This document shows, one piece after another, positions 783 to 1,948 of a stretch of DNA of 45,624 nt (positions are counted from its first letter, which is position 1; each line of letters opens with the position of its first letter). The stretch lies in assembly GCA_033193195.1 (NCBI GenBank), contig GCA_033193195.1_4326.1. One strand, given 5' to 3'. The notes below the pieces were generated by a model that did no database searches, was not told where the DNA came from, and worked only from the letters and a program-made list of their open reading frames with translations. A program made the translations under genes and the position numbers. The stretch comes from a phage.

Positions 783-1013
783 ATGACTAACTTAATCAAA
801 CTTTCAATCATCGCCGCAGCAGCAATCATGATGGTAGGTTGTTCATCTGGTCCTCGCCCGGACGGTTGGTGTGCAACGCAAGCAAATGGCGTATGCGTGG
901 CTAAATGGAAAGATGGTGTGCTTGTACCGTCTGGTGAAGTTGATGTGCGCTACGATGGAATCAAAGGTCATGGTGGCTCAGTTCGTGACTATGGCTCTAA
1001 GGAGTGGAATTAA
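783..1013 (+). CDS. small lipoprotein, candidate Cor/Llp-like superinfection exclusion protein
   Basis: signal peptide with lipobox-like MMVGC-SS, 76 aa, sits beside tail fibre genes. Confidence 0.45.
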
Positions 1014-1948
1014 TGGCTCAGGGTATCTATATAGACCTTAATGACGGAAGGAATCCAATGACAATTACCGCAGGGATGAGGGCGTTAAACTTCGCTGGAA
1101 ACTTTAACGTTAATAGTGGTGGCTTTAGTAAGACATTCTCAATTCAGGGAAATGAAGGTGCATCACGTTTTTTAATTCCTAATAATGGTGCCTTCAGCTT
1201 CGAACTTGACAGGGGTGTTGAGGTTTATTATATAAGTGGATTTTCATCAACACCTACATCTGGGACAATCTCAATAGGTTCAGAGAATGGATATTCTGAC
1301 AGGGTCACGTCATTTTCAGGGACTGTTGTTGAGGTCTTGATGGCATCAAGCGGCCAGGGCATATACGTTGCTGATAGTTGTGATTTTGCATCAATAACAA
1401 CTGCTGGCAGGTTGCTAATATGCAAGTACTCTAAAAGGGTAACTTTTACAGGCTCATTCAATCTCCCTATTTATGGAATACCGTTCGGTAAGTGGGATAA
1501 TGATGGAGTTTCAGTTGAGTACAACGGAAGCGGCCAGCTTATTTGCACAAACATAAACACAGGAAATACTGGTGACACCCCAGGAAGTGTAACTATGGAC
1601 CTTGTGATATTTCAGATGGTTGCACCAACGCCTGGGCCTGGCATAAACATTTTCAACTCTAACAATGTTTGCACATTCTCAACATTGACAAGACCATTGG
1701 TTGTGTCTGGATTTATAAGTCTGTCAGGAAGCAATCAATACATAGGTAGTTCATACTTCCCAATACTTAGATGTGGGTTTAACACCAGGGCGACACGTGC
1801 TTACAAGGAGTTGCGAAATAAGGGAATTGTTATGTCCGGTGGATACGTTAGATCTGGTACTGGATCAAGGATTGTGAGATACGAGATTGGTAATAGACCA
1901 GATGTAACCATATCAACTCCATTGCCATACTTGCCTGATATGTATTAA
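1013..1948 (+). CDS. hypothetical protein (beta-rich, Gly/Ser-rich)
   Basis: ATG 1013 overlaps upstream stop (TAATG) with AAGGAG upstream; track start 1004 is GTG. Confidence 0.45.
   Translation: MAQGIYIDLNDGRNPMTITAGMRALNFAGNFNVNSGGFSKTFSIQGNEGASRFLIPNNGAFSFELDRGVEVYYISGFSSTPTSGTISIGSENGYSDRVTSFSGTVVEVLMASSGQGIYVADSCDFASITTAGRLLICKYSKRVTFTGSFNLPIYGIPFGKWDNDGVSVEYNGSGQLICTNINTGNTGDTPGSVTMDLVIFQMVAPTPGPGINIFNSNNVCTFSTLTRPLVVSGFISLSGSNQYIGSSYFPILRCGFNTRATRAYKELRNKGIVMSGGYVRSGTGSRIVRYEIGNRPDVTISTPLPYLPDMY

What the first reader, a model, noticed from the sequence alone, without database searches (positions are those of the whole stretch)
783..1948. Lipoprotein plus unknown 312-aa protein convergent with the tail fibre gene
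Seen: a 76-aa lipoprotein with its own family promoter, followed by an overlapping beta-rich ORF, both opposite in orientation to the J-like gene and sharing its terminator. Inference: the lipoprotein resembles in size and position receptor-blocking superinfection-exclusion lipoproteins; the partner protein is unassigned.
Basis: inference. Interest (0 to 1): 0.4.

Follow-up and report, generated by a model that had tools for sequence, protein, structure and literature searches.

The report
LptD receptor-binding and exclusion cassette
This is an ordinary, already characterised phage cassette: one protein lets the tail tip bind the bacterial outer-membrane protein LptD, and a small lipoprotein blocks that same receptor in infected cells.

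Summary
The window has a 76-aa lipoprotein gene (783-1013) and a 311-aa (not 312-aa) all-beta protein gene (1013-1948), joined by a TAATG overlap. A promoter/operator motif that recurs across the genome lies upstream. A bidirectional hairpin (1953-1972) is shared with the convergent J-like gene.

The cassette is the rtp45/rtp44-type locus of a Rtp-like Drexlerviridae coliphage.
- **Lipoprotein:** Pfam PF24052, 92% identical to Rtp45. Rtp45 has a cryo-EM structure bound to the periplasmic face of LptDE (PDB 9RPS). There it pushes LptD loop EL4 outward, so the phage receptor-binding protein cannot bind.
- **"Unassigned" partner:** Pfam DUF6453. It is 86% identical to the homologue in JeanPiccard and 78% to that in AugustePiccard, both experimentally LptD-dependent phages. 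It is 77% identical to Rtp44.
- **Structural match:** its only match among solved structures, by sequence (E 1.6e-45) and by predicted fold (Foldseek E 3.6e-18), is the Oekolampad receptor-binding protein bound to LptDE (9RPT).

The partner is the receptor-binding protein whose binding the lipoprotein blocks. This is a new allele of a known kind, of low interest. LptD binding and exclusion are inferred by homology; neither was tested for this phage.

The parts
697..715 (+). Operator-like inverted repeat of the phage promoter family (AATAGCACGAATAGATAAA; consensus TAGCA-N5-TGCTA, this copy has 2 mismatches in the right half-site)
   Evidence: 12 copies in the window against 0.01 expected. Conserved upstream of the lipoprotein gene in Rtp, Bas01, Bas02, BEK2, BEK1-1 and OzMSK.
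714..741 (+). Promoter-like hexamers AAGACA - 16 nt - TATGAT
   Evidence: The same fixed 16-nt geometry relative to the palindrome is seen in the other family copies. Promoter function is inferred.
747..759 (+). Conserved leader CATCGAAACGAAA of the promoter family
   Evidence: 5 exact copies against 0.07 expected.
783..1013 (+). Gene for a 76-aa prolipoprotein (mature form 57 aa from Cys20; Cys30 and Cys38 present). Rtp45-type superinfection-exclusion protein that targets LptDE.
   Evidence: PF24052 E 4.4e-38, 129.5 bits against a cut-off of 27. 92% identical to PDB 9RPS chain D, E 1.9e-45. Cysteines invariant in alignments.
999..1004 (+). Shine-Dalgarno AAGGAG for the 311-aa gene, inside the 3' end of the lipoprotein gene. 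Together with the TAATG overlap it suggests translational coupling.
   Evidence: Read directly from the sequence.
1013..1948 (+). Gene for the 311-aa all-beta receptor-binding protein (DUF6453, Rtp44-type), predicted to bind LptD
   Evidence: PF20051 E 2.6e-112. 77% identical to Rtp44; 86% to Bas02 and 78% to Bas01. E 1.6e-45 to PDB 9RPT chain C. AF2 model matches 9rpt_C with E 3.6e-18 and TM 0.87.
1953..1972 (.). Bidirectional intrinsic-terminator-like hairpin between the convergent receptor-binding-protein and J-like genes
   Evidence: 8-bp stem with 5 G-C pairs, dG -16.1 kcal/mol, z -3.8, T-runs on both strands.
1977..5387 (-). J-like central tail fibre / tail tip gene (1136 aa), the presumed docking partner of the receptor-binding protein
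   Evidence: PF24801, PF13550 and PF09327. 84% identical to Rtp43 and the same length. The docking role comes from the literature (PMC8594841) and is inferred here.

Best explanation
The region is one transcription unit that encodes the terminal host-recognition module of a Rtp-like T1-family (Drexlerviridae) coliphage, together with its matching superinfection-exclusion factor.

The 311-aa DUF6453 protein is the receptor-binding protein. It is proposed to sit non-covalently at the distal end of the J-like tail tip. [quoted passage not shown] This commits the phage to DNA ejection.

The 76-aa product is made as a prolipoprotein, lipidated at Cys20 and, with Ser at +2, sorted to the inner leaflet of the outer membrane. 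There it binds the periplasmic side of LptD near strands beta5-8, between LptE and LptM. A disulfide-stabilised (Cys30-Cys38) beta-hairpin reaches up through the LptD lumen and pushes loop EL4 outward by up to about 20 A. In that state LptD cannot accept the receptor-binding protein. Infected cells, and debris after lysis, therefore stop adsorbing this phage and other LptD-targeting phages.

Both genes are read from a phage-specific promoter that carries an operator-like palindrome. The palindrome is probably bound by the phage's Rtp52-like helix-turn-helix regulator. The two genes are translationally coupled and end at a hairpin shared with the J-like gene.

Shown here: family membership, fold, gene order, the motifs and their statistics. 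Taken from published work on close homologues: LptD as receptor and the structural mechanism. Inferred: that this allele does the same, its expression control, and docking on J.
For: Lipoprotein:
- PF24052, E 4.4e-38.
- 92% identical over all 76 residues to Rtp45 (PDB 9RPS chain D), E 1.9e-45.
- Residues 1-34 are identical to Rtp45. They include the lipobox Cys20, Cys30 and all but the last residue of the 30-35 strand that pairs with LptD. Cys38 is also conserved.
- The Rtp45-LptDE(M) cryo-EM mechanism is described in PMC12685063.

Receptor-binding protein:
- DUF6453, E 2.6e-112.
- Full-length match to the Oekolampad receptor-binding protein solved on LptDE (9RPT chain C), E 1.6e-45.
- AF2 model with pLDDT 85.3; its only significant PDB fold match is 9rpt_C, with E 3.6e-18, probability 1.00 and TM 0.87 on the target.
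- 86% identical to the JeanPiccard (Bas02) homologue and 78% to the AugustePiccard (Bas01) homologue. Both phages are blocked by lptD mutations (PMC8594841).
- OzMSK, with a 41% identical homologue, also fails on lptD mutants (PMC13035648).

Context:
- Bas01 and Bas02 have the same order: Dcm-like methyltransferase, then lipoprotein, then receptor-binding protein, convergent with J.
- The core lipoprotein, receptor-binding protein and convergent J arrangement also holds in Rtp, BEK1-1, BEK2, OzMSK and Oekolampad.
- The region is colinear with Rtp from window position 698 onward.

Expression signals:
- Promoter family.
- Rtp52 homologue at 38170-38643, 86% identical.
- Terminator.
Against: - Nothing in this window was tested functionally.
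- The receptor-binding-protein allele is not identical to any characterised one. The best phage-database match is 87%, the best metagenome match 94%, and local identity to Rtp44 falls to 60-64% over residues 126-175.
- The solved receptor-binding-protein complex is for a homologue only 34-35% identical by sequence alignment.
- In the papers I read, an in-vivo exclusion phenotype for Rtp45-type lipoproteins is not reported; the exclusion mechanism rests on the complex structure.
- That paper notes Rtp44 itself could not be expressed. Direct LptD binding is therefore shown only for the Oekolampad protein.
- Attachment of the receptor-binding protein to J is a literature proposal, not demonstrated.
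- The operator copy in front of this operon is the most degenerate of the family, with 2 mismatches in one half-site, so its regulation may differ.
Confidence: 0.9

Rival explanations
1. The architecture is the same, a DUF6453 receptor-binding protein with a cognate lipoprotein, but this diverged allele recognises an outer-membrane protein other than LptD, and the lipoprotein blocks that other receptor.
For: The receptor-binding protein is 13-23% diverged from the validated Bas02, Bas01 and Rtp alleles, with the lowest identity in residues 126-175. Maffei et al. stress frequent horizontal exchange of these loci.
Against: Family members as distant as 34-41% identity (Oekolampad, OzMSK) still use LptD. 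In that work every allele class matched one receptor without exception. The lipoprotein is 92% identical to Rtp45, including nearly all of the LptD-contacting strand. A receptor switch would need both partners to change.
Confidence: 0.05
2. The lipoprotein is a Cor- or Llp-type exclusion protein that inactivates FhuA or another TonB-dependent transporter, as in T1, phi80, N15 or T5.
For: It has similar size, lipoprotein nature and position next to tail genes. There is a weak PHROG hit to Cor (phrog_1119, E 0.0097).
Against: The Cor hit covers only residues 6-34, essentially the signal peptide, and no stretch passes the threshold on its own. The strong hits are PF24052 and phrog_4281. The PDB sequence search returns only the LptDE-bound Rtp45 chain and no Llp chain. 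From my own recollection of Wietzorrek et al. 2006, which the tools could not open, Rtp does not need FhuA or TonB.
Confidence: 0.02
3. The 311-aa protein is a non-structural 'membrane protein' or moron, as RefSeq and PHROG annotate it, and is unrelated to adsorption.
For: phrog_1265 is labelled 'membrane protein; moron', and several RefSeq records call homologues 'membrane protein'.
Against: The AF2 model is an all-beta soluble fold with no helix of four or more residues, so no helical transmembrane segment. Its only structural match is a receptor-binding protein bound to the outside of LptDE. The homologue was purified as a soluble protein and imaged on its receptor. The gene always sits at the J-proximal receptor-binding-protein locus. 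The label appears to be an annotation legacy.
Confidence: 0.02
4. The small lipoprotein is an outer-membrane spanin component (Rz1-like) that acts in lysis.
For: Its size and outer-membrane lipoprotein character resemble o-spanins.
Against: It is not in a lysis cassette, and no Rz-like partner overlaps it. It is near-identical to a protein solved in complex with LptDE. It is always linked to the receptor-binding-protein gene in the siphophages examined.
Confidence: 0.01

Closest known systems
Rtp45 / Rtp44 of Escherichia phage Rtp (Drexlerviridae, Braunvirinae). The Rtp45-LptDE(M) complex is PDB 9RPS.
   Same: The gene order, lengths (76 and 311 aa), TAATG overlap, upstream promoter motif, convergent J gene (1136 aa in both) and terminator position are all the same. 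The lipoprotein is 92% identical and the receptor-binding protein 77%.
   Different: The upstream neighbour differs: a Dcm-like methyltransferase here, rtp46 on the opposite strand in Rtp. The receptor-binding protein is closer to the Bas02/BEK type than to Rtp44, so the cassette looks recombinant.
bas02_0025 / bas02_0024 of JeanPiccard and bas01_0029 / bas01_0028 of AugustePiccard (BASEL phages, experimentally LptD-dependent)
   Same: The layout is identical: Dcm-like methyltransferase, lipoprotein, receptor-binding protein, convergent J. The receptor-binding protein is 86% (Bas02) and 78% (Bas01) identical; the lipoprotein is 82% and 86% identical.
   Different: They are different alleles. 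The methyltransferase here carries an in-frame TAG that those phages lack.
Oekolampad (Bas18, Dhillonvirus) receptor-binding protein bas18_0025 and exclusion lipoprotein bas18_0026. The LptDE-receptor-binding-protein complex is PDB 9RPT, 9RPW and 9RQI.
   Same: Same two Pfam families and the same lipoprotein, receptor-binding protein and convergent J arrangement. The fold matches (TM 0.87), with conserved N-terminal (MxxGIxIDxNDGR) and C-terminal (P.MY) motifs.
   Different: Only 35% (receptor-binding protein) and 38% (lipoprotein) identity. It belongs to a different phage genus.
Phage T5 pb5 (receptor-binding protein) and Llp (exclusion lipoprotein), acting on FhuA
   Same: The logic is the same: a dedicated receptor-binding protein at the tip of a straight fibre, plus a small periplasm-facing outer-membrane lipoprotein that makes the receptor unable to bind it.
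   Different: No sequence homology was detected. The receptor is a TonB-dependent transporter. Llp acts by long-range allostery, whereas Rtp45 physically displaces a loop through the barrel lumen (PMC12685063).
Cor lipoproteins of T1, phi80, N15 and HK022
   Same: They are small lipoproteins encoded near tail genes that exclude phages using the same receptor.
   Different: They are a different family: only a signal-peptide-level hit, E 0.0097. They act on FhuA.

Membership tests
PF24052 / Rtp45-type LptDE-binding superinfection-exclusion lipoprotein | Matches the family profile above the curated cut-off over its full length | tested here: met
   129.5 bits against a cut-off of 27, residues 1-75 on profile positions 1-80 of 80. 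phrog_4281 E 2.7e-32.
PF24052 / Rtp45-type LptDE-binding superinfection-exclusion lipoprotein | Type II signal peptide with lipobox and an acylated Cys, and no inner-membrane retention signal at +2 | tested here: met
   K6, hydrophobic core 7-18, M17-V18-G19-C20 and Ser21 at +2, read from the sequence. Residues 1-34 are identical to Rtp45. Lipidation itself was not tested.
PF24052 / Rtp45-type LptDE-binding superinfection-exclusion lipoprotein | The Cys30-Cys38 disulfide pair and the 30-35 strand that pairs with LptD residues 318-323 | tested here: met
   C30 and C38 are invariant in 5- and 6-sequence alignments. The strand reads CATQAN against CATQAS in Rtp45. Structural roles are from PMC12685063.
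PF24052 / Rtp45-type LptDE-binding superinfection-exclusion lipoprotein | Binds the periplasmic face of LptDE and displaces EL4; excludes LptD-dependent phages | not testable with these tools
   This needs co-purification or cryo-EM and plating or adsorption assays. The paper reports that AF3 complex predictions for this family are wrong, so in-silico docking would not be informative.
DUF6453 (PF20051) / LptD-targeting receptor-binding protein of small siphophages | Matches the family profile above the curated cut-off over its full length | tested here: met
   375.4 bits against a cut-off of 25, residues 4-291 on profile positions 1-290 of 291.
DUF6453 (PF20051) / LptD-targeting receptor-binding protein of small siphophages | Same fold as the solved receptor-binding protein of Oekolampad | tested here: met
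   AF2 pLDDT 85.3 and pTM 0.86. The only Foldseek PDB hit with E <= 0.001 is 9rpt_C: E 3.6e-18, TM 0.87 normalised to the target, rmsd 3.0 A. The sequence E-value is 1.6e-45.
DUF6453 (PF20051) / LptD-targeting receptor-binding protein of small siphophages | Encoded at the receptor-binding-protein locus directly downstream of the gpJ homologue, paired with the lipoprotein gene | tested here: met
   The gene's stop is at 1948 and the J stop at 1977, in convergent orientation. Seven other siphophages show the same layout. The locus concept is from PMC8594841.
DUF6453 (PF20051) / LptD-targeting receptor-binding protein of small siphophages | Close homology to alleles of phages shown experimentally to depend on LptD | tested here: met
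   86% to the Bas02 allele and 78% to the Bas01 allele. The LptD dependence of those phages is reported in PMC8594841.
DUF6453 (PF20051) / LptD-targeting receptor-binding protein of small siphophages | Binds LptD; is a virion component docked on J | not testable with these tools
   This requires plating on lptD mutants, pull-down with LptDE and virion proteomics.
Cor superinfection-exclusion lipoproteins (FhuA-blocking) | Profile match beyond the signal peptide | tested here: not met
   phrog_1119 E 0.0097, with no stretch passing on its own and the best stretch at residues 6-34 only. No Cor family among the Pfam hits.
T5 Llp (FhuA-blocking lipoprotein) | Sequence similarity to Llp | tested here: not met
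   The PDB sequence search at E <= 0.01 returned only 9rps_D. Pfam gave only PF24052. The resemblance is functional, not familial.

The most novel reading that the evidence does not exclude
The cassette is a recombinant allele. The lipoprotein is closest to Rtp (92%), while the receptor-binding protein is closest to the Bas02/BEK type (86-87%) and only 77% identical to Rtp44. If the exclusion lipoprotein, which binds the conserved periplasmic face of LptD, protects against all receptor-binding-protein alleles, the two genes could be exchanged independently. The diverged stretch at residues 126-175 might then reflect adaptation to LptD loop variants or escape from receptor mutations. That would make this allele useful for mapping which receptor-binding-protein loops set LptD-variant host range.
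Probability: 0.15. Interest if true: 0.3.

Novelty: new member of a known kind. Interest (0 to 1): 0.12.

Why it matters
For genome annotation, two genes usually labelled 'hypothetical', 'membrane protein' or 'putative lipoprotein' can be renamed with confidence. One is the receptor-binding protein and the other its matching exclusion lipoprotein, and the phage's terminal receptor can be predicted as the essential protein LptD.

That prediction has practical uses. It helps forecast host range, choose phages with non-overlapping receptors for cocktails, and anticipate cross-exclusion. It adds no new biology: the locus type was defined in 2021 and the structures of both protein types on LptDE were published in 2025.

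Tried and rejected
- **Single-sequence AlphaFold2 of the 311-aa protein:** pLDDT 31.6, unusable. It was replaced by a model built on a 39-sequence alignment.
- **Cor family membership:** only a signal-peptide-level hit, so rejected.
- **'Membrane protein / moron' label of phrog_1265 and RefSeq:** contradicted by the fold and by the solved homologue.
- **Generic sigma-70 scan:** not above chance on its own, 6 sites against 9.8 expected. The promoter claim rests on the recurring phage-specific motif instead.
- **Original Rtp genome paper (PMC1367250):** not held. Statements about Rtp52 repeats and FhuA/TonB independence of Rtp come from my own recollection, not from a tool result.
- **OzMSK methylase as a homologue of the upstream methyltransferase here:** it is not one (E 0.26); only the position is analogous.
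- **Predicting the lipoprotein structure or its complex:** not attempted, because the authors of the cryo-EM study report that AF3 models of Rtp45 and its LptDE complex are wrong.
- **Python access to loci L003-L006:** failed because the files were not yet present. The alignments were done with the alignment tools instead.

Full report
**What is in the sequence**

ORF 783..1013 (+) encodes a 76-aa protein that begins [20 protein letters not shown]|SSGP. It has a basic residue (K6), a 12-residue hydrophobic core and the lipobox M-V-G-C with Cys20. Ser follows at +2, which by the E. coli +2 rule means sorting to the outer membrane.

The next ORF starts at the ATG at 1013, which overlaps the lipoprotein's TAA stop (TAATG). 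An AAGGAG Shine-Dalgarno lies at 999-1004.

A J-like gene (1977..5387, minus strand, 1136 aa; PF24801, PF13550, PF09327) converges on it. Between the two stop codons lies the hairpin AAAGCCCC-TTTC-GGGGCTTT at 1953-1972. It has A/T runs on both sides, dG -16.1 kcal/mol and z -3.8, and no shuffle folded as well.

**The 'family promoter' is real**

A 19-nt motif, AATAGCACGAATTGCTAAA, contains the palindrome TAGCA-N5-TGCTA. It occurs 12 times in the window at up to 3 mismatches, against 0.01 expected. One copy sits at 697-715.

In the aligned copies the palindrome is followed, at a fixed distance, by a poor -35-like hexamer, a 16-nt spacer and a good -10 hexamer; here that is AAGACA-16 nt-TATGAT at 714-741. 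Several copies also carry the leader CATCGAAACGAAA, which appears 5 times against 0.07 expected.

The whole element is conserved upstream of the lipoprotein gene in Rtp, AugustePiccard, JeanPiccard, BEK2, BEK1-1 and OzMSK. This holds even where the upstream gene differs.

By my count the palindrome is centred near -42, where a bound regulator would touch RNA polymerase. The window encodes an 86% identical homologue of Rtp52, annotated as a helix-turn-helix regulator (38170-38643). That this protein controls the promoters is an inference.

The generic sigma-70 scan by itself is not above chance.

**What the two proteins are**

- **Lipoprotein.** It matches Pfam PF24052 'Phage lipoprotein family' (E 4.4e-38). 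It is 92% identical over all 76 residues to PDB 9RPS chain D, which is Rtp45 of phage Rtp (E 1.9e-45).
- **311-aa protein, sequence.** It matches DUF6453 (E 2.6e-112). It is 77% identical to Rtp44, 86% to bas02_0024 of JeanPiccard and 78% to bas01_0028 of AugustePiccard.
- **311-aa protein, solved structures.** It aligns end to end (E 1.6e-45) with PDB 9RPT chain C, the receptor-binding protein of phage Oekolampad.
- **311-aa protein, predicted fold.** An AlphaFold2 model on a 39-sequence alignment (pLDDT 85.3, pTM 0.86) is all-beta, with 26 strands. Its only significant PDB fold match is 9rpt_C (E 3.6e-18, TM 0.87 on the target). The next hit has E 0.06.

**Context**

From position 698 onward the window is colinear with phage Rtp, at about 75% nucleotide identity. 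AugustePiccard and JeanPiccard share the order Dcm-like methyltransferase, lipoprotein, receptor-binding protein, convergent J. The core lipoprotein, receptor-binding protein and convergent J arrangement also occurs in Rtp, BEK1-1, BEK2, OzMSK and Oekolampad.

**What the literature establishes for the homologues**

- **Maffei et al. 2021 (PMC8594841).** They defined 'bona fide RBP loci' directly downstream of gpJ in small siphophages and matched each allele class to one receptor. Resistance to AugustePiccard, JeanPiccard, Oekolampad and others mapped to lptD. They predicted that Rtp, through rtp44/rtp45, uses LptD.
- **Black et al. 2025 (PMC13035648).** OzMSK fails on the same lptD mutants, and the receptor-binding-protein models share a double beta-sandwich fold.
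- **Dunbar et al. 2025 (PMC12685063).** They solved the Oekolampad receptor-binding protein inserted into an open state of LptDE, contacting EL3-5 and EL11. They also solved Rtp45 bound to the periplasmic side of LptD between LptE and LptM.
- **Rtp45 mechanism (same paper).** Rtp45 has a Cys30-Cys38 disulfide, and its hairpin runs up the lumen and displaces EL4 by up to 20 A. That blocks receptor-binding-protein binding by steric displacement, not by allostery.

All the Rtp45 features named there are present here: Cys20, Cys30, Cys38, and strand 30-35 with a single Ser-to-Asn change at position 35.

**Most likely mechanism**

The 311-aa protein is the tail-tip receptor-binding protein that targets LptD. 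The 76-aa lipoprotein is its matching superinfection-exclusion factor, and it makes LptD refractory from the periplasmic side. The two are co-transcribed from a regulated phage promoter and translationally coupled.

I put this at about 0.9. The remaining uncertainty comes from three gaps:
- Nothing was tested for this allele.
- Direct LptD binding is shown only for a 35% identical relative.
- I found no in-vivo exclusion assay for Rtp45-type proteins in the papers I could read.

**Rivals**

- **A different receptor for this allele (about 0.05).** This is unlikely because members as distant as 34-41% identity still use LptD, and because the lipoprotein is nearly identical to the LptD binder.
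- **A Cor or Llp-type FhuA blocker (about 0.02).** Rejected on family tests.
- **A 'membrane protein' moron (about 0.02).** Contradicted by the fold and by the solved homologue.
- **A spanin (about 0.01).** Does not fit the context.

**Novelty and score**

This is a new allele of a well-described module. The best phage-database match for the receptor-binding protein is 87% and the best metagenome match 94%. The lipoprotein is Rtp-like while the receptor-binding protein is Bas02/BEK-like, which fits the reported horizontal exchange of these loci.

A specialist would not be surprised, and no open question is unlocked. Interest is about 0.12. The result is useful mainly for annotation and receptor prediction.

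**Seen in passing**

- The upstream Dcm-like methyltransferase gene carries an in-frame TAG.
- Both protein families also occur, unlinked, in Gordonclarkvirinae podophages and in Klebsiella Webervirus phages.
- DUF6453 proteins are also encoded in enterobacterial chromosomes.
- The window appears to be a circularly permuted complete genome.
- Some records labelled 'Campylobacter phage' match this coliphage region.

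Noticed in passing
window 25-714 (TAG at 91-93): The Dcm-like C5 cytosine methyltransferase gene just upstream has an in-frame amber codon at codon 23. AugustePiccard, JeanPiccard and BEK2 have Thr (ACT or ACA) at that position. All three bases differ, and the change creates ACTAGT, a SpeI site. The gene is otherwise intact, with the FDGSG and PPC motifs. It could be a natural pseudogene, a sequencing or assembly artefact, or an engineered knockout.
   Followed up: partly
L005:2641-3675 (Kuravirus MN03 gp027) and L010:1486-1812 (Suseptimavirus 101114UKE3_106): Gordonclarkvirinae podophages encode both a DUF6453 protein (E 1.2e-24, next to a tail fibre gene) and a PF24052 lipoprotein (E 7.6e-36), but far apart in the genome. 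The BASEL-2 paper describes their receptors as O-antigen plus probably LPS core and does not mention LptD for them. This suggests LptD could be their terminal receptor, with Rtp45-like exclusion. I did not check whether this has been published elsewhere.
   Followed up: partly
L006:1501-2457 (Klebsiella phage Domnhall gp22); Klebsiella phage records: In Webervirus phages of Klebsiella the DUF6453 gene follows the J-like gene on the same strand, not convergently. The PF24052-like lipoprotein lies about 10 kb away (for example TAH8, BHM14, 066039). The receptor-binding protein and lipoprotein pair therefore persists without linkage.
   Followed up: no
window 697-715, 19807-19825, 23509-23527, 24646-24664, 25887-25905, 26852-26870, 27632-27650, 31082-31100, 34505-34523, 40141-40159, 43924-43942, 45572-45590: There are 12 copies of an operator-like palindrome (TAGCA-N5-TGCTA), against 0.01 expected. 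Most sit at a fixed distance upstream of a -10 box with a weak -35, which suggests regulator-dependent promoters. Several copies have a G+C-rich hairpin in the spacer between the -35 and -10 positions. A Rtp52-like helix-turn-helix protein (38170-38643, 86% identical to Rtp52) is the candidate regulator.
   Followed up: partly
window 45572-45624 joined to 1-27: The last promoter-family copy at the window's end reads across the end into the methyltransferase start codon at 25. The window therefore looks like a complete, circularly permuted genome linearised inside a promoter leader.
   Followed up: no
proteins P0039, P0040, P0043, P0045, P0057, P0061, P0062, P0069, P0073: DUF6453 proteins 34-63% identical to the window protein are encoded on long E. 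coli, Citrobacter and Enterobacter contigs of up to 4.9 Mb. They are presumably in prophages, so temperate phages may also use this receptor-binding-protein type, with possible lysogenic conversion by the lipoprotein.
   Followed up: no
phage records MG065688.1, MG065670.1, MG065667.1: Records named 'Campylobacter phage A110b/A121/A127' (host Campylobacter jejuni) match this coliphage-type region. A110b is 83.5% identical in nucleotide sequence over the methyltransferase region, and A121 and A127 show 35-38% protein identity. The host labels look doubtful, or the samples may have been contaminated with T1-like coliphages.
   Followed up: no
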